From: Escherichia phage vB_EcoM-fFiEco06
Length of the DNA: 64,000 nucleotides
Sequence record: NC_054914.1
Strand: one strand, 5' to 3'
The notes below the pieces were generated by a model, which saw only the letters and a program-made list of their open reading frames with translations, had not been told where the DNA came from and did no database searches. This document shows, piece after piece, positions 2,525 through 63,238 of this stretch; position 1 is the stretch's first letter; the number at the start of each line of letters is the position of its first letter. A program made the translations under genes and the position numbers.

Positions 2525-3118
2525 TTATTTCAGAGAATTAATGTATTCCTGAACATCGGCAGAGGTAGTTTCAACCCCAGAAATATTACCGTTAAAGGTT
2601 TCAACTCGAGCAAGGGTATCTTCAATATCAACCTTAGTCAGTGCTGCAATTTCAACTACATCATCAGCAGTACTAATTCCAAGGGCATTCGCTGCACGAG
2701 TTTCACGGATATATTCCAATTTAACCGCAAGTTCTTGACGAGCATCATCTAACTCAACTACTTTCTTGGCGATTTCAATTCGCATTTCAGCATAACCGTC
2801 AGCCTTAGTAGTCAACTGCTCAGCTGTTCGACGATATAGTAAACCGAGTTTAGCATGCATTGTTACATCTTGGCCTTCGGAAAGAAGTTTACGAATTTCA
2901 CGCTCTTTTGATTCGGCCTGTCGATTCTTTTCGATAACAAGTTCACGAATACGTTTTTCTTCGTTAATAGATTTAACAGAAGCAGTTTTTAGATCTTTAA
3001 TTTTATCAAGTAGTTTTGCTGCTGCAGCAGTATACTGTTCTTCGACAGATAGATTTTTAGCCATAGCAGAACCAAGTTTAGTGCGAATAAACTCAACAAT
3101 TTTCTTCAGTGTGTTCAT
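2525..3118 (-). CDS. alpha-helical coiled-coil protein, weak PspA/IM30-like character
   Basis: 197 aa; charged heptad-rich sequence ([41 protein letters not shown]); family assignment not verified. Confidence 0.55.
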
Positions 3119-5991: not shown

Positions 5992-6390
5992 TCAGCCTTC
6001 ATCAACAATAGTGTGAGTATTAGCATTTACGATTTGCCACCAATCAAAGCGATTAGAATCCATCGGTTTGTTTTCATTTTCTTTGATAATGTCACGGAGT
6101 TCATCTTCAGAGAATGCTTTAGCAATTAAATCGGTATACCCACCACGGGGATAATAATTATCACCTGCAAACAAAAGGAAATTTACCTTCCCGGAAGCAA
6201 CATATGCTTCCTTAGGATACTTGTTTCCTGCGTGGTCAACCACTTCAATATAACGGTAAGGAATATCGGTTCTTTCAACCCATTGCCATGCCGCCGCAGG
6301 GGAATCGAAAGCATCTACACCTAAACGATTATCTTCATCTTTAGACGGATTATTTTCGTAATCCGCATATACATAATATTCAACGTTCAT
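5992..6390 (-). CDS. hypothetical protein
   Basis: 132 aa ORF, ATG start; stop 2 nt from next gene. Confidence 0.5.
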   Translation of the reverse strand: MNVEYYVYADYENNPSKDEDNRLGVDAFDSPAAAWQWVERTDIPYRYIEVVDHAGNKYPKEAYVASGKVNFLLFAGDNYYPRGGYTDLIAKAFSEDELRDIIKENENKPMDSNRFDWWQIVNANTHTIVDEG

Positions 6391-6575
6391 TATTCACCTT
6401 TAGAAATTTTATCCATAACAATAGCAATTAAACCAATTAAAAATGCTACTACAAGTGAAAAAACATTTTCTGCCGTAGTCAATAATCCGCATATAAATCC
6501 AACAAACATTGAAAAACTGAAAGCGGAAGCAGAAATTGCAATAGCAACATTTCGAATTAATTCACAACGTTTCAT
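6390..6575 (-). CDS. hypothetical small membrane protein
   Basis: 61 aa, almost entirely hydrophobic; GAGGAG SD; start/stop overlap with downstream ORF. Confidence 0.5.
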   Translation of the reverse strand: MKRCELIRNVAIAISASAFSFSMFVGFICGLLTTAENVFSLVVAFLIGLIAIVMDKISKGE

Positions 6576-7274: not shown

Positions 7275-7959
<685 letters not shown>

Positions 7960-55114: not shown

Positions 55115-55144
55115 ACTATAACACAACACGAGGGACTTGTAAAC
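55115..55144 (-). promoter_or_regulatory. putative early promoter (-35 GTTTAC, 18-nt spacer, TGTTATAGT)
   Basis: Same GTTTAC/extended -10 architecture as ip-locus promoters; lies over the 3' end of the alt-like gene. Confidence 0.4.
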
Positions 55145-57201
55145 TACATTTTGAACTTTTTAGACATTCCGTTGATGTTAACCAAAGAAGTCAAGATTTG
55201 AGAAACTTCATTTTCCTCTTCTTTTGATTCTTCTACAAGGAATTGATTAAATCCAGCCATTGGACGAACTTCACCAGTTTCCATTAGATGGTCTCCATCA
55301 TATACTGATTCTTCTAATTGTTCAGAAGGAGGAACGATTGTACCTTCGATTAGATACTTGTTATAAGCAGTTTCTTTCATAAAGTACGTACTTACTTTAT
55401 TAATCTTCAGTAAAATTCCACGTGGTAGAATAACTTCAGCTTCTGATGGAAATCCTGATAAATGACCTGGAACGATAACTTTGATTCGCTCAGCTCCTTT
55501 AATTACCATACCCACGCTAGTTTCTGCATCTTCATTAGCATATGTAGAATGACTACCCATATGCATCAAATCTTCTGCATCAACGGAACCTTCTCCTTCA
55601 CCAGAAAATACTGCGCCGGAATCATCTAGAGCCATATAGTTTTTACCATGCTCACCGAAGATATTTGGTTTAAGCGATGTGGATACGAAGTTCTTGAAAT
55701 AGAACATTTTATTTTCAATGTTATGACGCAAAGTTTTAAAGGTAACTTCTTGCCCACGGTAAAGTGTAGTTCCTGGAGGAAGAACTGATCCTTTGGCAAA
55801 GGCAGAATCTAACGTCTCGATGTGCTTAATAGCTCGTTCCATGTATTCTTCACGGGTAGAATCTGGTTTACCCAAAAGGAACGAGTTCATTTCAACATAT
55901 GAATCTGCACAATAATCTTCAATTACATCAGATTCAGCCTGAGTCAGTCCTTTTGGAGCTACTTCGGTGCTTGCGTATTCATATGCCTGGGCAGCAGATT
56001 CATTAATCAATTTATAAATGCCATTCATTACAAATTGAATAATAGCTGTCTTTTCATCTGGTGTGGTTTTAGAACCTTTAACTAAATCATTAATAATTTT
56101 CTTAATAACATCAAAGCTATTAGAAATATTAATGTCAGCAAGATCGCTTAAAATTTTATCAGTTTTATAATCAAAGAATTCTTTATTCTTTAAATATTCT
56201 TGAGAACCTTGATATGTTATATCGCTCTGCAACTTGATAGATGGATCACGTAAACGTGCATGGGCCAATGCAATATGATTTCGGAAGCTTTCTAGTTCAT
56301 AATCGCTAGATTTAAAACGAGAAGCACTTCTCATACCACCGATAGCTCCTTTGCTGAAGTTTGAACCAATCTGGATAACGCCAGAGTTCATTGGTCCTTC
56401 TGCTTTATATACCGGAACTTTAGATTCAAACTCTTGATATTTCTTGGCAGCGAAGCTATCACCCTGTAGCGAAGCATCGACAGTAGAATATTGAGCTTGT
56501 GCTGCTAATCGACGACTAATTTTAGTTTTCTGAATAACAGCTTGGTCCGTGCGCTTATCATTTTCTAAAGCAATAGAAGCAGCAACAGCGACAGCTTTAG
56601 GAACAGCATTTCCTGTTTTAACGTCTACATAAACATCACCGACCTTTGATTCAACTTTTGTGAATAACTCAGTTGAAATGGGAGGTACACCTGGAATGTC
56701 TTCTAAATTGGCATTTTTACGGTAAACCATAATATATGCGTACTTTTTATCGTAATCCCAGATTTCCTTTAAAAGAACATATCGACCTGCTCCTTTAGTA
56801 CGTACTAAACGGTCAGCAATAACTTGCATTTGACGAGCTGCGCCATTTGTTTTACTCTTTAGTACACGGAATAAGCACGCGTCAATTTTATACTGCTTCA
56901 TTGTTTGAAGAGCAGTATCAAAAACGGCATTAATGACACCAATTGGATTTCCACCCAAGTTTTTAAGCTTAACTAATGATAGTTTCTCATTAACACCTAT
57001 CATTACGATATGCATCATTTTATCGCCTGGCTTAACGTTTTTATTCGTATCACCACCAGAGGTGTATGTACAAAATCTAAATCCAGGAAGCACGCTTTCT
57101 TCGCCGGCTTGAATAGCAAAAATTTGTGGTATTTTATGCTTAGGATTTAAGTTAACAACCGGCGCCGAAGCGCCGTCAAATAATTCTGTAATAAGTTCCA
57201 T
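55144..57201 (-). CDS. Alt-family ADP-ribosyltransferase paralog (distal copy)
   Basis: 685 aa; N-terminal region near-identical in blocks to the upstream copy; R-S-E ART signature TLYRGQ / NFVSTSL / EAEVILPRG. Confidence 0.8.
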   Translation of the reverse strand: MELITELFDGASAPVVNLNPKHKIPQIFAIQAGEESVLPGFRFCTYTSGGDTNKNVKPGDKMMHIVMIGVNEKLSLVKLKNLGGNPIGVINAVFDTALQTMKQYKIDACLFRVLKSKTNGAARQMQVIADRLVRTKGAGRYVLLKEIWDYDKKYAYIMVYRKNANLEDIPGVPPISTELFTKVESKVGDVYVDVKTGNAVPKAVAVAASIALENDKRTDQAVIQKTKISRRLAAQAQYSTVDASLQGDSFAAKKYQEFESKVPVYKAEGPMNSGVIQIGSNFSKGAIGGMRSASRFKSSDYELESFRNHIALAHARLRDPSIKLQSDITYQGSQEYLKNKEFFDYKTDKILSDLADINISNSFDVIKKIINDLVKGSKTTPDEKTAIIQFVMNGIYKLINESAAQAYEYASTEVAPKGLTQAESDVIEDYCADSYVEMNSFLLGKPDSTREEYMERAIKHIETLDSAFAKGSVLPPGTTLYRGQEVTFKTLRHNIENKMFYFKNFVSTSLKPNIFGEHGKNYMALDDSGAVFSGEGEGSVDAEDLMHMGSHSTYANEDAETSVGMVIKGAERIKVIVPGHLSGFPSEAEVILPRGILLKINKVSTYFMKETAYNKYLIEGTIVPPSEQLEESVYDGDHLMETGEVRPMAGFNQFLVEESKEEENEVSQILTSLVNINGMSKKFKM

Positions 57202-57204
57202 GAT

Positions 57205-59262
57205 TTATCCTTGAACGAACTTGTAAGGCATGTTTGCAATATCTATACAAGACGCAATAATTCCAAGAGATGATTCTACTTTCTGTTTAACGTTTGATGA
57301 AACAAATGATGTAAAGTCAACTCTGTCTTCTATTTCAATATCACCTGTCATTGCAACTACTTCGCCGGTTTCCATTAGACGGTCACCGTCATAAATTACC
57401 GATTCGGTGAGTTCTTCTGTGGTCATAACTTCAGCTTGAATAAGCTTGTTGTTAGTTTTAACTGTTCCATCATTGTAAGATGCATCGGTTATTTTATTAA
57501 CTTTGACCATTAATCCACGTGGCAAAATGACTTCCATTTCATTTGAAGGTGCTAAACTTCCACCTGGTAAAACAACATTGACTTTATCAGCCCCAGTAAT
57601 AACCCATCCAATTCCAACTAAATTATCGCTAGAATTTACTAGTCCTTCATCAGTTTTATCAATAGAAACACTTAAACGCTTTTCGTCTGGTAAAACACCC
57701 ACAGATGAATCAGTCATCCAGGTACCAAAAATATTTGGATATAATGATGTTGACACAAAATTTCTAAAATAAAAAACTCGATTTTTTACCAGTGCTTCAT
57801 ATATTGAAGGTAACATTCGTTGTGAACGATACAAAGTAATACCTTTTGGTAATCGTTCACCATTTTTAAAGGCAGAATCTAAATTATCAATAGCTTTTTC
57901 TATATCAGATGCTGTCAAAATACTTGTACGCTCATCTGGATTATATAATCCCAAAAGAGCGTTATTTATGTCTACATATCCTGAACTTACGTATTCACGA
58001 ATTCCGCGTTTTTGTGCCGGTGTGTATTTAGATGAATCTTTATTTTCGACTATAGGATGTAGTGACCATCCAGCGGTAAGAGCATATCCACGCAATTCTC
58101 TTCGAATAATCTTTGTTTTTATTGCATTCCAAGAATTTTGTACTAACTCATTCGCAGCATCTTGATTTAAATGCGAATGCTTGTTAATGTTTCTTTCTAA
58201 CCAAGCACCTTTATATTTTTCTAAAGTATCATCAACTATAGAAGCAATAGTTTCTAAAGTTTTTATTGAAGTAATAGATTCTTTTCGTAATCTTTCTAAA
58301 GCTTTATTTTTTATTTCTGCATTAACATCAGATTCTTTATCTTCAGGAATTATAGAAGCTTCTCTGAATGCCATTCCAGCTGTAACACTACTAAGAGCAT
58401 TCTCTAATGCAAATCCTGAAGTAGAAATAACAGTTAATTCATTAGCGTCAGAAATTAAAGGAGCGTCAGCAGGTTTATTTAATTCTGCTGCTGAAGCCTC
58501 AAATTTTTGAAACATCGGCGTTTCAAATCTAGAAGATTCCAATGATTGACTTTGCGCAATTGCTCTACGGGAAATTTTAACTTTAACGATTACAGCTTGG
58601 TCAGAACGTTTATCATTTTCTTGCGCAATAGATGCTGCAATTGCCTCATTTTTAGTTACTTGAGCTCCAGTATCTTTATTGATATAAACATCACCGACCT
58701 TCGATTCAACTTTAGTAAAGAGCTCAGTACTAATTTCCGGAACTCCCGGAATGTCTTCTAGTGATACATTTTTGCGATGTATAAGAATATATGCATACTT
58801 TTTATCGTAATCCCAGAGTTCCTTAAGAAGGACATATCTGCCACCTGAACGACTACGGATAAGTCTATCAGCAATAACTTGAATTTGTCGAGCTTGACCA
58901 GCGGTTTTAGACTTAAGAATACGAAGCATACAGGCATCAATTTTATACTGACGCATTGTTTGCATCGCAACAGTAAAAACTGAATTGATATAATTAATTG
59001 GGCTTGGACCAAGACCTTTTAATTTAGCAATTGAACCTTTAGCAGTTAATGTAAAAGGAACAATATGCATCATTTTATCGCCCATCTTTAAATCGCGATT
59101 AGTATCACCTCCAGATGTATAGGTACATAAACGAAAGCCTGGTTGTTCAATTGCATCATCAACATGAACTGAAAAAATTTGCGGTATTTTCTTCTTTGGA
59201 TTTAAGTTTGTAATCGGAAGAGTAGTATCTTCGTCAAATAATTCTGTAATAAGTTCCATCAT
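57205..59262 (-). CDS. alt: Alt ADP-ribosyltransferase (promoter-proximal copy)
   Basis: 685 aa (T4 Alt 682); R-S-E signature TLYRSQ / NFVSTSL / EMEVILPRG; late promoter and GAGAGG SD upstream; which copy is orthologous to T4 alt is not resolved. Confidence 0.8.
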   Translation of the reverse strand: MMELITELFDEDTTLPITNLNPKKKIPQIFSVHVDDAIEQPGFRLCTYTSGGDTNRDLKMGDKMMHIVPFTLTAKGSIAKLKGLGPSPINYINSVFTVAMQTMRQYKIDACMLRILKSKTAGQARQIQVIADRLIRSRSGGRYVLLKELWDYDKKYAYILIHRKNVSLEDIPGVPEISTELFTKVESKVGDVYINKDTGAQVTKNEAIAASIAQENDKRSDQAVIVKVKISRRAIAQSQSLESSRFETPMFQKFEASAAELNKPADAPLISDANELTVISTSGFALENALSSVTAGMAFREASIIPEDKESDVNAEIKNKALERLRKESITSIKTLETIASIVDDTLEKYKGAWLERNINKHSHLNQDAANELVQNSWNAIKTKIIRRELRGYALTAGWSLHPIVENKDSSKYTPAQKRGIREYVSSGYVDINNALLGLYNPDERTSILTASDIEKAIDNLDSAFKNGERLPKGITLYRSQRMLPSIYEALVKNRVFYFRNFVSTSLYPNIFGTWMTDSSVGVLPDEKRLSVSIDKTDEGLVNSSDNLVGIGWVITGADKVNVVLPGGSLAPSNEMEVILPRGLMVKVNKITDASYNDGTVKTNNKLIQAEVMTTEELTESVIYDGDRLMETGEVVAMTGDIEIEDRVDFTSFVSSNVKQKVESSLGIIASCIDIANMPYKFVQG

Positions 59263-59313: not shown

Positions 59314-59500
59314 AATAATCTAGTGGTAAGAGAGTACGGTATATTTCAAACTTTGGACCTTTTTCATAGGCATCAAATGTTTCTGTGAATTTATTATAAG
59401 CGTATGCATCTACAAATTCGAGAATGACTTGTGATACAGAAGTAGAAACATCTCCACCTTCTTTTTGAGCAATGACAATTGTTTCTAAGTAAGCTTTCAT
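59312..59500 (-). CDS. hypothetical protein
   Basis: 62 aa ORF; start overlaps gene 30 stop (ATGA). Confidence 0.5.
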   Translation of the reverse strand: MKAYLETIVIAQKEGGDVSTSVSQVILEFVDAYAYNKFTETFDAYEKGPKFEIYRTLLPLDY

Positions 59501-60960
59501 AAACCAGTTACCTCATGAAAATCACCAAATACATCCTCGAATGTATTAGCTTTAGTTTTATCTTCACGCAAACGAATCGCAATCGGAAGAAATAATTTAA
59601 CGTAATCAGTGCGGCCATCAGATTTTAACCAACCGTTGCATTCGCACTCTAGAATTTTTCCAATATAATAATTTTGGTTTTCCATAATGCGAGTACGGTC
59701 AAGTTCATGCGATTTTACACCGGCTTTATCTTTTAAGCCTGAACCAGCATTTACTTTAATTTTTCCACACTCTGACTCAAGAATAAATCCACCTGCTTTA
59801 GTAGGGTCTTTACGGTGAGGATAAATTCCTACAATTTTTAAATCAACATCAATTACTTCTTTAAATTTATAGAGATTTTTTGAACGAGCATTTTCCCATA
59901 ATCCATCGATATTTTTGAGAATAATACCTTCAAGACCTTGGTCAATATACTTTTTATAAATTACCTTGGCTTCGTCTAGGTTATTTACTACCTGGTTTTC
60001 AATTAAAATTACTTTATCATAGCCTGATGTCATTTGTTCTAGTTTAGAAAAACGTACATCATATTTCAAACGAAATGCAGGAAGACCGTATATTTCTACC
60101 AACGGTACATAATCCCAGACCTGAAACTTCATGCATTGTGCTTCTTTTTCAGAAATGGTTCCCTTTAAAGATTTATTGGCGATGCCATTAGATGCAGTAC
60201 GTGATTCAGCTACTTCGGCGAATTCTTTAGCTTTACTGTTTTCAGGATAAGCATCAAAAAGAAAATCTAGGCCTTCTGGCTCCTTTTCAACTTGCTCATG
60301 GTATACCAATTCGCCATCAATTAACACACCTTCTGGATGAATCTGGCGAGCTTCTGCAGTCATTTTGATTAACTCTTCTTTGAGAAGATCTAATCCTAGA
60401 TATTCATTACCAGCTCGTGATAAAAGACGAACATCATCTAATTCATCACCTCTGACTTCAGCAAAGCACCGAGCTCCATCAGCTTTTAATTGGGCAAAGG
60501 CTGGAAATTTGATATTCTTGCTAATGCCTTTTTCATCATAAGAACTTGCCAGCATTTGAGGTTGTTCAGGAATTAAACCTGGCCAAACTTTGTTTGCAAT
60601 AGATACTGATGCACCGCATTCAAGGTCTCGCATCATCACCCGACGCAAAACTTCAACATCATCTTTTTTACCGTCAGCAATATATCCAGTCAATTCCTCA
60701 ATTGCCGCATTTCCAGTCAATTTCCGAGTAGCTAATGTGAATTCAATGAAGTCAAGCATATCGGTAAGAGTCAACATTCCAAAACTCTGGGTAGCAATAC
60801 CAGGTTTAGGCCATTTCTTGATATAATACTGTAACCCACGAGAATAAGTTAGACGATATACTCGTTTAAGCAATTCATTATCTTTATTCTTTTCAAGAAT
60901 TGCTTGCTTCTGCTTAGTTGAACCAATAGATGCTATTTTGTTCAGAATTTTAAGAATCAT
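59497..60960 (-). CDS. 30: gp30 ATP-dependent DNA ligase
   Basis: 487 aa; MILKILNKIASIGSTKQKQAILEKNKDNELLKRVYRLTYSRGLQYYIKKWPKPG; adenylation motif KADGARC. Confidence 0.97.
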   Translation of the reverse strand: MILKILNKIASIGSTKQKQAILEKNKDNELLKRVYRLTYSRGLQYYIKKWPKPGIATQSFGMLTLTDMLDFIEFTLATRKLTGNAAIEELTGYIADGKKDDVEVLRRVMMRDLECGASVSIANKVWPGLIPEQPQMLASSYDEKGISKNIKFPAFAQLKADGARCFAEVRGDELDDVRLLSRAGNEYLGLDLLKEELIKMTAEARQIHPEGVLIDGELVYHEQVEKEPEGLDFLFDAYPENSKAKEFAEVAESRTASNGIANKSLKGTISEKEAQCMKFQVWDYVPLVEIYGLPAFRLKYDVRFSKLEQMTSGYDKVILIENQVVNNLDEAKVIYKKYIDQGLEGIILKNIDGLWENARSKNLYKFKEVIDVDLKIVGIYPHRKDPTKAGGFILESECGKIKVNAGSGLKDKAGVKSHELDRTRIMENQNYYIGKILECECNGWLKSDGRTDYVKLFLPIAIRLREDKTKANTFEDVFGDFHEVTGL

Positions 60961-61226
60961 TGTTCATCCTTTAGAGTTTGGTTTACAGCTCTATTATAAA
61001 TCAATTCATCATTAAGCTCAGTCAAAGACTTGTGGTACGTGGTTCTAACTTTATTTCCTTGCATCCAGTGCTTGACGTAAATGAAACCTTGCTCTACACA
61101 TTTTTTAAAAATTCGTTCGTCTTTTTGAGCTCGGAATTCTGGATTGCATCTAAAAAATTGATTTACGTGACCGTAATCACGTGTAGTATTACCTTCATTT
61201 TCATAAATAGTGTGAACGACAAACAT
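60957..61226 (-). CDS. hypothetical protein (30.1-like position)
   Basis: 89 aa ORF overlapping gene 30 start. Confidence 0.5.
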   Translation of the reverse strand: MFVVHTIYENEGNTTRDYGHVNQFFRCNPEFRAQKDERIFKKCVEQGFIYVKHWMQGNKVRTTYHKSLTELNDELIYNRAVNQTLKDEQ

Positions 61227-62062
61227 TAGAATGCTCCTTGAAAAATATTATCACCACTAGTAGGTCTATTATACAAATACTCTATGCCACCGGGTTTAAT
61301 ATAGTTCCATGTCTGAAACGGATGCGTCTGATATGGATGATATAGATTATAAGGATTAAATCCAGGAGTTCTCCAGGTAGTGTTCCAAGGAAAAGAATCG
61401 TTTTTAATCATCTTTTCAATTACATCTTTTATAGCTTTTTCACTATCAAAACTTTCTTTATTTTCATTCGATGGAAAAAGCTTATTCTCTACATCATTCC
61501 ATGTATAAACTCGCTGTGCAGTTTTTGGAATACTGTCACGCTCCCCTCGAGCCATCCAATAAACAGGAACATTTAATATTTCACTCGCATGATCGCAGTG
61601 GTGAGCGAGATCGTCAATATAACAAATTACGTTATATTTCTCTTTTGCCTTTTTGAACAACTCTTCTTTTGAAGAATCATGACCACACATCAATACTTCT
61701 GAGAAGGCACCAGGAAAAAGAGCATTCAAATTAAATTGACGATTCAGCAGAGCGTCAATAGAATCACCCAGTGCTGTAACAGCTACAAAATTATAATCTT
61801 CTTTTAATTTGTTAATTACACACAGGGCATCTTTATATGGAGACAAATAGCGAATAAAATCTGAACGATTATACTTTTCGATTAATTTAACACCAAGTTC
61901 TTCATCGCAATTAAAGAGCTTACCAGGAGAAATAAATTTTTCGTCCTGAATCATTTTTAAAATATGTTCCAACGGAAGATTATATTTTTGGGCAAAATAA
62001 GGAAGGCCCGATTGCCAGCTTAAACACACCCCGTCAATATCAGTCAAAATAGTAGGCTTCAT
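61226..62062 (-). CDS. putative HAD-superfamily phosphatase / 5'(3')-deoxyribonucleotidase-like protein
   Basis: 278 aa; HAD motif I ILTDIDGV near N-terminus, motif II FVAVTALG, motif IV ICYIDDL; assignment by motif only. Confidence 0.5.
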   Translation of the reverse strand: MKPTILTDIDGVCLSWQSGLPYFAQKYNLPLEHILKMIQDEKFISPGKLFNCDEELGVKLIEKYNRSDFIRYLSPYKDALCVINKLKEDYNFVAVTALGDSIDALLNRQFNLNALFPGAFSEVLMCGHDSSKEELFKKAKEKYNVICYIDDLAHHCDHASEILNVPVYWMARGERDSIPKTAQRVYTWNDVENKLFPSNENKESFDSEKAIKDVIEKMIKNDSFPWNTTWRTPGFNPYNLYHPYQTHPFQTWNYIKPGGIEYLYNRPTSGDNIFQGAF

Positions 62063-62523
62063 AGAGAGTCTCTTAATAGGTTTAACACATCAATAAATTC
62101 AGCTTCGGTTAGTATTGTATCATCTTTTGTTAGACCACTAGCCATGCTATGCTTCAAAATTTTTCCTTTAGAGGCTTGTAAGGCATCACGAAACCCCTTG
62201 TTTTGAATCGCTGCTTCAAAATATGCATTTGTATACAACTCTTTCCATGCTGCAGAGTATCTTGAAAAGGGAATTCCAAGCCAGAAAAGCGTCCCACGGT
62301 CCGCAGCTCTTGCATAAGCTCTTCCACTTTGCTGGGCGGCCAAGCCGGAGAGCCCAAATATACGTTTTTGTTGTTCAACATTTTTCACCTTGCATCCTTG
62401 GAGGAATCCTTCAAGACCTCCGAATTGAATACCATCCATGACGAAAGGCCATTGGGCGAAATTACTTAATGCACACGATGGCCATCTAAAATTGCTTCTA
62501 ATCTCTAACTCAGACATTTTCAA
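62059..62523 (-). CDS. putative NADAR/YbiA-like domain protein
   Basis: 154 aa; ALSNFAQWPFVMDGIQFGGLEGFLQGCKV resembles YbiA-family core (FSNF..WP...DG.....EHYFQAQKF); motif-level only. Confidence 0.5.
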   Translation of the reverse strand: MKMSELEIRSNFRWPSCALSNFAQWPFVMDGIQFGGLEGFLQGCKVKNVEQQKRIFGLSGLAAQQSGRAYARAADRGTLFWLGIPFSRYSAAWKELYTNAYFEAAIQNKGFRDALQASKGKILKHSMASGLTKDDTILTEAEFIDVLNLLRDSL

Positions 62524-62716
62524 TACTTATAATTTCAACATCAGCCCAATGACCATAGCAAGGAAGACGAAATTCAACTGGCCAGTTAGGGTCCTTTTCT
62601 AATATAATAGACTTAACTTGTGGTTCTTCATGTTCATCAGTATACGGATTTTTATCTGTTACTTTATATGTGACCTTAATGTACTGAATTCCAAAAATCT
62701 TATTAATTATATTCAT
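62510..62716 (-). CDS. hypothetical protein
   Basis: 68 aa ORF in tightly packed operon. Confidence 0.45.
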   Translation of the reverse strand: MNIINKIFGIQYIKVTYKVTDKNPYTDEHEEPQVKSIILEKDPNWPVEFRLPCYGHWADVEIISIENV

Positions 62717-63197: not shown

Positions 63198-63214
63198 AGT
63201 ATTTTCCTCAGTAA

Positions 63215-63228
63215 GGGGCCGAAGCCCC
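63215..63228 (-). terminator. stem-loop GGGGC-UUCG-GCCCC (minus RNA)
   Basis: Identical hairpin to 2505-2518 and 42824-42837; intergenic. Confidence 0.45.
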
Positions 63229-63238
63229 TCATTTTATT

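What the first reader, a model, noticed from the sequence alone, without database searches (positions are those of the whole stretch)
61226..62523. NADAR/YbiA-like and HAD-like ORFs in the operon between ligase and the Alt ARTs
ORF 62059..62523 has the YbiA/NADAR-type core (LSNFAQWPF.MDG...GLEGFLQGCKV). ORF 61226..62062 has HAD motifs I, II and IV (DIDGV, VAVTALG, YIDDL). NADAR-family enzymes are linked to ADP-ribose and nucleotide-derivative hydrolysis. Their position, co-oriented with DNA ligase and two ADP-ribosyltransferases, suggests a nucleotide or ADP-ribose processing module, possibly counter-defence or repair related. Both assignments are by motif only.
Basis: inference. Interest (0 to 1): 0.55.

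Follow-up and report, generated by a model that had tools for sequence, protein, structure and literature searches.

The report
T4 AdfN NADAR plus HAD phosphatase
The two genes are the T4-type phage genes 30.3 and 30.2: 30.3 is AdfN, a published enzyme that strips defensive ADP-ribose marks off phage DNA, and 30.2 is an uncharacterised nucleotidase-like phosphatase that appears to work independently of it.

Summary
The window is a Tequatrovirus (T4-like) genome. Both ORFs are real and the quoted motifs are present.

**ORF 62059..62523(-) is gene 30.3, adfN.**
- It is 95% identical to T4 gp30.3 and matches PF08010 at E 3.6e-67.
- The predicted fold matches the three solved NADAR structures.
- E36, K43, H123 and the C-terminal helix are intact.
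- The true start is probably ATG 62517.

**ORF 61226..62062(-) is gene 30.2.**
- It is 97% identical to the T4 protein and has no published function in the searched literature.
- It is a C1-capped HAD phosphatase with all four catalytic motifs conserved: D8/D10, T96, K132, D150/D151.
- It is a divergent relative of the 5'(3')-deoxyribonucleotidase family NT5C (hhalign 99.85%).
- It carries a variable disordered tail.

**The "module" reading is not supported.**
- NADAR lies next to 30.2 in 22 of 78 loci.
- 60 of 80 NADAR loci lack 30.2.
- T4 transposon data show 30.2 is dispensable against DarTG1.
- Instead, 30.2 stays beside DNA ligase in 66 to 73 of 78 loci.

Overall the finding is ordinary and largely already explained.

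The parts
62059..62517 (-). Gene 30.3 / adfN: a 152-aa NADAR-family DNA ADP-ribosylglycohydrolase. The open frame extends to TTG 62523.
   Evidence: PF08010 E 3.6e-67. 95% identical to T4 gp30.3. AF2 pLDDT 92.6. Foldseek top three hits are YbiA 2b3w, G. lovleyi NADAR 8bat and Phytophthora NADAR 8bau. Function of the T4 orthologue is in PMC11825919.
62389..62469 (-). NADAR core motif, residues 17-43 (LSNF...GLEGFLQGCK), containing catalytic E36 (62410-62412) and K43 (62389-62391).
   Evidence: S18, N19, F20, E36, G37, F38 and Q40 are invariant and K43 is at least 90% conserved in 43 homologues. This region aligns to YbiA in a profile search, E 0.0057. E36A and K43A impair T4 AdfN.
62149..62151 (-). 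H123 in the last beta-strand, the histidine that marks the phage gp30.3 subtype of NADARs.
   Evidence: Invariant in A3. Lies in strand 120-123 of the model. The subtype-defining role is stated in PMC11125620.
62065..62106 (-). C-terminal helix of AdfN (residues 138-151). It is intact here, whereas RB69 loses it through a frameshift.
   Evidence: Helix 138-151 in the model. Full-length alignment to T4. Truncation reduces activity.
61226..62062 (-). Gene 30.2: a 278-aa HAD-superfamily phosphatase of the NT5C-like clade, plus a disordered tail.
61478..62062 (-). HAD core plus C1 helical cap (residues 1-195). Motif I is DIDGV at 62027-62041. The cap is residues 16-86. Motif II is VAVTALG at 61766-61786. 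Motif III is K132 at 61667-61669. Motif IV is YIDDL at 61607-61621.
   Evidence: pLDDT is above 90 over residues 1-190. D8, D10, G11, K132, D150 and D151 are invariant and T96 is at least 90% conserved. D8, D10, R108, K132 and D151 are still invariant in relatives at 22-40% identity.
61229..61477 (-). Variable C-terminal tail of gp30.2, rich in Trp, Pro and Tyr and predicted disordered (residues 196-278). It carries the short motif IEYLYNRPT (61259-61285).
   Evidence: pLDDT is below 50 for 223-235, 239-257 and 269-278. The tail is absent or different in many homologues. The motif is found in 17 of 100 homologues and nowhere else in the window.
62154..62381 (-). Internal out-of-frame ORF 30.3' (75 aa), annotated in T4.
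   Evidence: The ORF is present. The T4 record annotates 30.3' as an internal translation in another frame. Not tested here.
59497..60960 (-). Gene 30, ATP-dependent DNA ligase. It is the gene that gp30.2 stays linked to across T4-like phages.
   Evidence: PF01068 E 1.9e-32. Ligase lies within 6 kb of gp30.2 in 73 of 78 loci and within 600 nt in 66 of 78.
60957..61226 (-). Gene 30.1 (DUF3045), between 30.2 and ligase.
   Evidence: PF11243 E 1.1e-63. T4 annotation.
62510..62716 (-). Gene 30.4 (68 aa), upstream of adfN and overlapping its start by 8 nt.
   Evidence: phrog_2042. Junction sequence. It is the second significant hit in the T4 DarTG1 transposon screen.

Best explanation
These are two independent enzymes that happen to be neighbours in the early-gene run 30.6 -> 30 of a T4-type phage. 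The reading frames in that run abut or overlap.

**Gene 30.3 is AdfN.**
- It is a stand-alone NADAR-fold hydrolase.
- In T4, this enzyme cuts ADP-ribose off guanine bases that the host DarT1 toxin puts on phage DNA. That lets replication proceed in DarTG1 hosts.
- The copy in this window is full length with the catalytic Glu36, Lys43 and His123. It is inferred to be active, and the phage is inferred to be DarTG1-resistant.

**Gene 30.2 is a Mg2+-dependent phospho-monoesterase of the HAD superfamily.**
- It has a C1 helical cap.
- The inferred mechanism is the standard HAD one. Asp8 forms the phospho-aspartyl intermediate. Asp10 acts as general acid/base. Thr96 and Lys132 hold the phosphate. 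Asp150 and Asp151 hold Mg2+.
- Its closest relatives are 5'(3')-deoxyribonucleotidases (NT5C). The most likely substrate is therefore a (deoxy)nucleoside monophosphate, stacked against the conserved Trp16. That would make it a nucleotide-pool enzyme of the replication and nucleotide-metabolism gene set.
- It is not part of the AdfN pathway.

**Shown versus inferred.** Shown here: identity, fold, motif conservation, gene-neighbourhood statistics and the published phenotypes. Inferred: that this copy of AdfN is active, and the chemistry and substrate of gp30.2.
For: **gp30.3**
- PF08010 at E 3.6e-67, and 95% identity to T4 AdfN with no truncation.
- Catalytic and subtype residues are conserved in 43 homologues.
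- A profile search hits YbiA.
- The AF2 model has pLDDT 92.6. Its only confident PDB matches are the three NADAR structures.
- T4 AdfN removes ADP-ribose from DNA in vitro, is needed against DarTG1, and E36A/K43A impair it (PMC11825919).
- Guanosine-ADPr hydrolysis by T4 gp30.3 was shown independently (PMC11125620).
- Transposon insertions in 30.3 are lost on DarTG1 hosts, log2FC -7.25.

**gp30.2**
- Motifs I-IV are invariant or nearly so in 35 close homologues. D8, D10, K132 and D151 are still invariant in 34 distant relatives.
- The AF2 core has pLDDT above 90.
- Foldseek gives 71 PDB hits at E<=1e-3, and all 50 listed are HAD-fold proteins. The best TM-scores are to deoxyribonucleotidase-like 3bwv and to cdN/mdN.
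- The top PDB profile hit is cdN 2jao, aligning DxDGV..W/F.SGL.
- Family members weakly hit PF00702, HAD_2 and NT5C.
- Distant members pass the NT5C gathering score.
- hhalign of the family against those members gives 99.85% probability, E 1e-30, over 193 columns.

**Independence of the two genes**.
Against: - gp30.2 itself has no Pfam or NCBIfam hit, so its placement in NT5C rests on transitive homology.
- No phenotype is known for 30.2 in LB, in M9, or on RnlAB or DarTG1 hosts.
- A general dNMP phosphatase seems counter-productive for a phage that recycles host dNMPs, so the true substrate may be narrower or different.
- T4 AdfN works fully only during T-even infection, and the factor it needs is unidentified. 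Redundancy could hide a contribution from 30.2.
Confidence: 0.8

Rival explanations
1. gp30.2 and gp30.3 form one ADP-ribose processing module. AdfN releases ADP-ribose from DNA, and the HAD enzyme processes the product or potentiates AdfN. It would then be the unidentified T-even factor that AdfN needs for full activity.
For: The two genes overlap by ATGA and are co-oriented. They are adjacent in Tequatrovirus, Mosigvirus-like and several Aeromonas/Acinetobacter-type loci (22 of 78). AdfN-T4 does need an unknown T-even factor. Both genes are found in about 1450-1500 phage records with the same host spectrum.
Against: In T4 on a DarTG1 host, 71 transposon sites in 30.2 give log2FC -0.12, p 0.61, against -7.25 for 30.3. 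60 of 80 NADAR loci have no gp30.2 within 6 kb. 40 of 78 gp30.2 loci have no NADAR within 6 kb. In 8 genomes the two genes are about 60 kb apart. Distant gp30.2 relatives have no NADAR neighbour.
Confidence: 0.06
2. gp30.2 is a partner of the DNA ligase. It could be a DNA-end 3'-phosphatase that heals nicks before sealing, or a nucleotidase tethered to the ligase or replisome through its disordered C-terminal tail.
Against: The enzyme has a full C1 cap (residues 16-86). That is typical of small-molecule HAD phosphatases, whereas polynucleotide phosphatases are capless (established knowledge of the superfamily). Outside Straboviridae-type contigs the relatives sit beside clamp loader, PhoH and kinase genes with no ligase, so the linkage may only be inherited synteny. 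T4 already has PseT for 3'-phosphate ends. Ligase is essential but 30.2 is not.
Confidence: 0.1
3. gp30.2 is a catalytically dead or non-phosphatase HAD-fold protein, such as a dehalogenase-like hydrolase or a scaffold.
For: Several top structural hits are haloacid dehalogenases and epoxide hydrolases. No phenotype is known.
Against: The second Asp of motif I (D10) marks phosphotransferases rather than dehalogenases, by established knowledge of the superfamily. It is invariant, as are K132 and D151, down to 22% identity. That indicates selection on phosphoryl-transfer chemistry.
Confidence: 0.04

Closest known systems
AdfN-T4 (T4 gp30.3), anti-DarT factor NADAR (Johannesman et al. 2025, PMC11825919)
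   Same: An orthologue: 144 of 152 residues identical, the same length, the same genomic position between 30.4 and 30.2, with E36, K43, H123 and the C-terminal helix all present.
   Different: Eight substitutions, none at the conserved or catalytic columns. Activity of this particular allele has not been tested.
DarG1 / DarT1-associated NADAR antitoxins (Geobacter lovleyi NADAR, PDB 8bat) and Phytophthora NADAR (8bau)
   Same: The same fold (Foldseek probability 0.99) and the same chemistry on guanine-ADP-ribose according to the papers.
   Different: Sequence identity is only 16-18%. The phage protein lacks the N-terminal extension of DarG1 and has His where these have Asp in the last strand. 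It is an orphan with no DarT partner. T4 AdfN does not rescue uninfected cells from DarT1.
E. coli YbiA (PF08719 NADAR, PDB 2b3w)
   Same: The best structural match (Foldseek E 3.8e-5, TM 0.69) and the only PDB sequence-profile hit.
   Different: YbiA has Glu in the last strand and is a housekeeping enzyme of riboflavin metabolism according to PMC11825919. The window protein hits PF08010, not PF08719.
5'(3')-deoxyribonucleotidases, Pfam NT5C PF06941 (human/mouse cdN 2jao and 2i7d, mdN 1q92, S. epidermidis 3bwv)
   Different: 14-20% identity. The window protein itself does not reach any Pfam threshold. It has an extra 80-residue disordered tail and family-specific invariant residues (S18, R108, N111, R172). 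Its substrate is unknown.
T5 Dmp deoxynucleoside-5'-monophosphatase
   Same: A phage-encoded dNMP phosphatase, so a possible functional analogue. It shares a DxDGT-type motif I.
   Different: No detectable homology beyond that motif (hhalign probability 2%). Dmp has no Pfam hit.
T4 PseT (polynucleotide kinase/3'-phosphatase), HAD phosphatase domain (PDB 1ltq)
   Different: Only the 126-residue core aligns. PseT's phosphatase is capless and acts on polynucleotide ends, whereas gp30.2 has a C1 cap.

Membership tests
Phage gp30.3-type NADAR (PF08010; AdfN) | Sequence match to the family model above the curated threshold | tested here: met
   224.9 bits against a cutoff of 36, E 3.6e-67, covering the whole 138-position model.
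Phage gp30.3-type NADAR (PF08010; AdfN) | NADAR fold | tested here: met
   AF2 pLDDT 92.6, pTM 0.88. The three NADAR structures in the PDB are the top three Foldseek hits (probability 0.99-1.00), and nothing else is above probability 0.1.
Phage gp30.3-type NADAR (PF08010; AdfN) | Catalytic Glu and Lys (E36, K43 in T4 numbering) | tested here: met
   Both are present. E36 is invariant and K43 is at least 90% conserved in 43 homologues. The residues are defined in PMC11825919.
Phage gp30.3-type NADAR (PF08010; AdfN) | Histidine in the last strand (Glu in YbiA, Asp in BC4488/DarG1 types) | tested here: met
   H123 is invariant and lies in strand 120-123. The criterion comes from PMC11125620.
Phage gp30.3-type NADAR (PF08010; AdfN) | Intact C-terminal helix (lost in the DarTG1-sensitive RB69 allele) | tested here: met
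   Full-length 152 aa ending LLRDSL as in T4. Helix 138-151 is present in the model.
Phage gp30.3-type NADAR (PF08010; AdfN) | Hydrolysis of guanine-linked ADP-ribose on DNA, and protection from DarTG1 | not testable with these tools
   Shown for the 95%-identical T4 protein. Inferred for this allele.
HAD superfamily phosphatase | Rossmann-like HAD core fold | tested here: met
HAD superfamily phosphatase | Motif I DxDx(T/V) with nucleophile Asp and Asp+2 general acid/base | tested here: met
   D8-I-D10-G-V. D8, D10 and G11 are invariant in close homologues, and D8 and D10 in distant ones.
HAD superfamily phosphatase | Motif II Thr/Ser, motif III Lys, motif IV acidic pair | tested here: met
   T96 is at least 90% conserved (Ser in a few). 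K132 is invariant. D150 and D151 are invariant in A2, and D151 is invariant in A4.
HAD superfamily phosphatase | Mg2+-dependent phosphomonoesterase activity | not testable with these tools
   No biochemical data were found for gp30.2 in the searched literature.
5'(3')-deoxyribonucleotidase family (Pfam NT5C, PF06941) | Score above the Pfam gathering threshold | tested here: not met
   The window protein has no NT5C hit even at E<=1. Only 5 of 35 close homologues hit NT5C weakly, best E 1.2e-4.
5'(3')-deoxyribonucleotidase family (Pfam NT5C, PF06941) | Full-length homology to proteins that are members | tested here: met
   The gp30.2-family profile finds P0312 at E 1.3e-22. P0312, P0348, P0355 and P0367 score 26-40 bits against NT5C, above the 24.8 cutoff. 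hhalign of A2 against 13 relatives with an NT5C hit on record (four re-scored here above the cutoff) gives 99.85%, E 1.1e-30, over 193 columns.
5'(3')-deoxyribonucleotidase family (Pfam NT5C, PF06941) | C1 helical cap with an aromatic residue after motif I | tested here: met
   The cap helices span residues 16-86, between strand 1 and strand 2. W16 aligns with the Phe of 'DGVLADFESGL' in cdN 2jao and is at least 90% conserved. Its base-stacking role is inferred from established knowledge of cdN/mdN.
5'(3')-deoxyribonucleotidase family (Pfam NT5C, PF06941) | Preference for dNMP substrates | not testable with these tools
   No assay is available.
Proposed NADAR-HAD functional module | Conserved gene adjacency across lineages | tested here: not met
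   The genes are adjacent in 22 of 78 gp30.2 loci. gp30.2 lies within 6 kb in 20 of 80 NADAR loci. In 8 genomes they are about 60 kb apart.
Proposed NADAR-HAD functional module | Shared phenotype (both needed against DarTG1) | tested here: not met
   Published T4 transposon data give 30.3 log2FC -7.25 (adjusted p 0) and 30.2 log2FC -0.12 (p 0.61).

The most novel reading that the evidence does not exclude
gp30.2 is not a generic pool nucleotidase but a dedicated companion of the T4-type DNA ligase. It would be either a nick-end or nucleotide phosphatase recruited through its variable disordered tail. This would explain why it is the one small gene of the hyperplastic 30-31 region that stays next to ligase in 66 to 73 of 78 loci, even after local rearrangement. 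A weaker variant is that it is a redundant potentiator of AdfN. Neither is excluded by the evidence, but the C1 cap, the loss of the ligase linkage outside Straboviridae-type contigs and the null DarTG1 phenotype make both unlikely.
Probability: 0.12. Interest if true: 0.45.

Novelty: already known. Interest (0 to 1): 0.2.

Why it matters
**AdfN.** Nothing new follows from the NADAR gene. It confirms that this phage carries an intact anti-DarTG1 gene, so it should plaque on DarTG1 hosts where RB69-like alleles fail. That is useful only for annotation or for choosing phages.

**gp30.2.** The modest value here is a firmer annotation of a gene found in about 1450 sequenced phages and usually labelled hypothetical. 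It is a catalytically intact NT5C-like HAD phosphatase, tightly linked to the ligase gene and dispensable under all screened laboratory conditions. It is therefore a defined target for a substrate screen.

**The missing AdfN co-factor.** The analysis makes gp30.2 an unlikely candidate for the unidentified T-even factor that AdfN needs. It points to 30.4 as something worth checking instead.

Tried and rejected
- **Direct searches with gp30.2.** Pfam and NCBIfam gave nothing meaningful. A single-sequence PDB search gave only E about 1. Profiles and structure prediction were needed.
- **First structure job.** I rebuilt the alignment without it.
- **T5 Dmp as a relative of gp30.2.** Rejected: hhalign probability 2%, with only motif I aligned.
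- **Fusion proteins in the gp30.2 family as function hints.** P0253 (591 aa), P0315 (660 aa), P0207 and P0245 showed no Pfam domain in the extra parts.
- **Locus search with the distant-member alignment A4.** It failed because no stretch was conserved enough. I used a protein search plus contig look-ups instead.
- **Literature on gp30.2.** Three searches found nothing on its function.
- **A phenotype for 30.2 in the HIDEN-SEQ tables.** None in the reference library or the RnlAB, DarTG1 and M9 sheets. The RexAB, DarTG2, CFE299, CFE331 and Mokosh sheets were not read. One supplement text search failed on tab-separated text.
- **Promoter and terminator scan of 59-64 kb.** Counts were at background, and no terminator was found on the coding strand between 30.6 and gene 30.
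- **Search for the gp30.2 tail motif elsewhere in the window.** None found.
Full report
**What the window is.** The 1.9 kb around the finding is 99.9% identical to Escherichia phage vB_EcoM-fHoEco02 and matches 726 phage records, mostly Escherichia and Shigella T4-like phages. Comparison with the annotated T4 record gives the minus-strand gene order here:
- two alt genes
- alt.1
- gene 30 (DNA ligase)
- 30.1, 30.2, 30.3 (with the internal ORF 30.3')
- 30.4, 30.5, 30.6, 30.7

The finding's two ORFs are therefore T4 genes 30.3 and 30.2.

**Observation check.** Both ORFs and all the quoted motifs are present. They are far beyond chance: PF08010 at E 3.6e-67 for gp30.3 and phrog_420 at E 4.3e-93 for gp30.2. 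Two refinements apply:
- The 30.3 start is most likely ATG 62517, giving 152 aa as in T4, rather than TTG 62523.

The genes are tightly packed. On the minus strand, 30.4/30.3 overlap by ATGTCTGA, 30.3/30.2 by ATGA and 30.2/30.1 by TAATG. 30.1 and gene 30 overlap by 4 nt by coordinates. No terminator-like site lies on the coding strand between 30.6 and gene 30, and promoter-like matches are at background.

**gp30.3 is AdfN.**
- The protein is 95% identical to T4 gp30.3 over all 152 residues.
- In an alignment of 43 homologues down to 35% identity, S18, N19, F20, E36, G37, F38, Q40, H123, T134 and T137 are invariant, and K43 is at least 90% conserved.
- The AlphaFold2 model is confident (pLDDT 92.6).
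- Its only confident Foldseek matches in the PDB are the three NADAR structures: YbiA 2b3w, Geobacter lovleyi NADAR 8bat and Phytophthora NADAR 8bau.

The function is published:
- Johannesman et al. (Nat Commun 2025, PMC11825919) renamed T4 30.3 as adfN. They showed that it removes ADP-ribose from DarT1-modified DNA and is needed for T4 to resist DarTG1. It depends on E36 and K43. It is inactivated in RB69 by a frameshift that removes the C-terminal helix.
- Toxins 2024 (PMC11125620) showed independently that T4 gp30.3 hydrolyses guanosine-ADP-ribose. That paper defines the phage subtype by a histidine in the last strand. H123 here fits that definition.
- A T4 transposon screen (bioRxiv 10.1101/2025.11.20.689424) found 30.3 insertions lost on DarTG1 hosts, log2FC -7.25.

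The allele in this window is full length with all these residues, so I infer it is active.

**gp30.2 is a HAD phosphatase of the NT5C-like clade.** The protein is 97% identical to T4 gp30.2. I found no published function for it. Direct Pfam and NCBIfam searches are empty.

Motif conservation:
- In 35 homologues down to 35% identity, D8, D10, G11, W16, S18, R108, N111, K132, D150, D151 and R172 are invariant, and T96 is at least 90% conserved.
- In 34 more distant relatives at 22-40% identity, D8, D10, R108, K132 and D151 remain invariant. W16, T96 and N111 remain at least 90% conserved.

These are HAD motifs I to IV. They include the Asp+2 residue that distinguishes phosphotransferases from dehalogenases, which is established knowledge of the superfamily.

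Structure:
- The AlphaFold2 model has pLDDT above 90 for residues 1-190.
- It shows a Rossmann-like core with a six-helix insertion (residues 16-86) straight after motif I. That is a C1 cap.
- Foldseek finds 71 PDB hits at E<=1e-3, and all 50 listed are HAD-fold proteins. The best target-normalised TM-scores and lowest rmsd go to deoxyribonucleotidase-like 3bwv (0.70) and to the cytosolic and mitochondrial 5'(3')-deoxyribonucleotidases (0.63-0.66, rmsd 4.3-4.8 Å).

Sequence evidence for the subfamily:
- The family profile's top PDB hit is cdN 2jao (E 0.024). The alignment runs through 'DGVLADFESGL' against 'DGVlvkWqSgL', which puts the conserved W16 opposite the cdN Phe.
- Five of 35 members hit Pfam NT5C weakly.
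- An exhaustive profile search finds 1410 representatives at E<=1e-3.
- Four of the distant relatives pass the NT5C gathering threshold over the whole model.
- hhalign of the T4-like family against 13 relatives with an NT5C hit on record gives 99.85% probability, E 1.1e-30, over 193 columns.

gp30.2 is thus a divergent relative of the 5'(3')-deoxyribonucleotidases. It does not itself meet the Pfam membership threshold.

The T5 dNMP phosphatase Dmp is not detectably related.

Residues 196-278 form a predicted disordered tail rich in Trp, Pro and Tyr. The tail is absent or replaced in many homologues and carries lineage-specific short motifs such as GTGIEYLNRQPT.

**Are the two genes a module?** Three lines of evidence say no.

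1. *Neighbourhoods of gp30.2.* In 78 viral-contig loci holding a gp30.2 homologue, a NADAR gene lies within 6 kb in 38 and is adjacent in 22. An ATP-dependent ligase lies within 6 kb in 73 and within 600 nt in 66.
2. *Neighbourhoods of the NADAR.* In 80 loci holding a gp30.3-family NADAR, only 20 have gp30.2 within 6 kb. In eight genomes the two genes are about 60 kb apart. In three of the four such loci examined (L134, L147, L109), the NADAR sits in the variable region flanked by homologues of the window's acb1 (57B) gene. That is another stretch of accessory anti-defence genes. The fourth locus, L104, had no matching flanks.
3. *Phenotype.* In the T4 transposon screen on a DarTG1 host, 30.2 (71 sites) has log2FC -0.12, p 0.61, whereas 30.3 has -7.25 (sheet identity confirmed).

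30.2 is also non-essential on K-12 and shows no phenotype on RnlAB hosts or in M9 medium.

Both genes occur in about 1450-1500 phage records with the same host spectrum. That only shows that each is widespread in Straboviridae.

gp30.2 is therefore unlikely to be the unidentified T-even factor that AdfN-T4 needs for full activity.

**What gp30.2 probably does.** The conserved phosphoryl-transfer residues, the C1 cap and the NT5C relationship point to a small-molecule phosphomonoesterase. A (deoxy)nucleoside monophosphate is the most likely substrate. This is inference.

The persistent linkage to ligase is notable. It survives rearrangement in L075, L077, L078 and L160. In more distant large phages, however, the relatives sit by clamp-loader, PhoH and kinase genes without a ligase. 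I read the context as general DNA and nucleotide metabolism rather than a specific partnership with ligase. A ligase-associated role remains the most interesting reading that the evidence does not exclude.

**Novelty and verdict.**
- The NADAR half is an already characterised gene.
- The HAD half is an uncharacterised but recognisable enzyme. Some database records already call it 'putative phosphatase', 'haloacid halogenase' or '5'(3')-deoxyribonucleotidase'.
- The functional-module interpretation is not supported.
- Interest is low.

The useful residue of the work is a firmer annotation of gp30.2, its ligase linkage, and evidence that it is not needed for AdfN-based defence against DarTG1.

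Noticed in passing
window 62510..62716 (-), gene 30.4: In the published T4 DarTG1 transposon screen, 30.4 is significantly depleted alongside adfN in the part of the table read (log2FC -1.79, adjusted p 0.014; 30.5 is -3.0 but not significant). 30.4 lies directly upstream of adfN and overlaps its start by 8 nt. This may be a polar or translational-coupling effect, or 30.4 may be a candidate for the unidentified factor that AdfN needs. The preprint does not discuss it.
   Followed up: partly
window 55144..57201 (-) and 57205..59262 (-): There are two intact tandem Alt-type ADP-ribosyltransferase genes of 685 aa each, 41% identical to each other and both hitting PF03496. The ligase-proximal copy is 98% identical to T4 Alt. 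At the position of the second copy, T4 has only the decayed fragments alt.-1 and alt.-2.
   Followed up: partly
L134, L147, L109 (about 6001-6450 in each); syntenic to window 2.5-7.7 kb: In Klebsiella/Enterobacter-type T4-like genomes the gp30.3-family NADAR gene is not next to 30.2. It lies in the variable region flanked by homologues of window ORFs 7275..7733 (Acb1, anti-CBASS, PF23474) and 2525..3118. The NADAR therefore behaves as a movable anti-defence cargo gene.
   Followed up: partly
window 61229..61477 (-), C-terminal tail of gp30.2: The tail after the HAD domain is predicted disordered, rich in Trp, Pro and Tyr, and very variable between lineages. It carries recurring short motifs: GTGIEYLNRQPT-like in 17 of 100 homologues, LRAYY- or LRASF-like C-termini in others, and no tail at all in about 40% of homologues. 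It could be a docking element. No partner was tested.
   Followed up: partly
window 62154..62381 (-): The out-of-frame internal ORF 30.3' (75 aa, ATG start) that T4 annotates inside 30.3 is also open here. Whether it is expressed or conserved beyond what the overlapping adfN frame imposes was not examined.
   Followed up: no
protein P0015 (302 aa, metagenome contig of 1378 nt): One homologue joins a gp30.2 HAD domain to a gp30.1 (DUF3045, PF11243) C-terminal part in a single ORF. This is either a natural fusion of the two neighbouring genes or a frameshift or assembly artefact.
   Followed up: no
window 63214..63229: A perfect GC-rich palindromic hairpin (AGGGGCCGAAGCCCCT) lies in the 41-nt gap between 30.7 and 30.6. 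It is the only sizeable intergenic gap in the 30.7 -> 30 gene run.
   Followed up: no
PMC11125620, Methods: That paper lists its T4 phage NADAR construct as 'gp30.3; residues 1-208', whereas T4 gp30.3 is 152 aa. The construct may include tag residues or come from another phage. This matters only for comparing the in vitro data.
   Followed up: no
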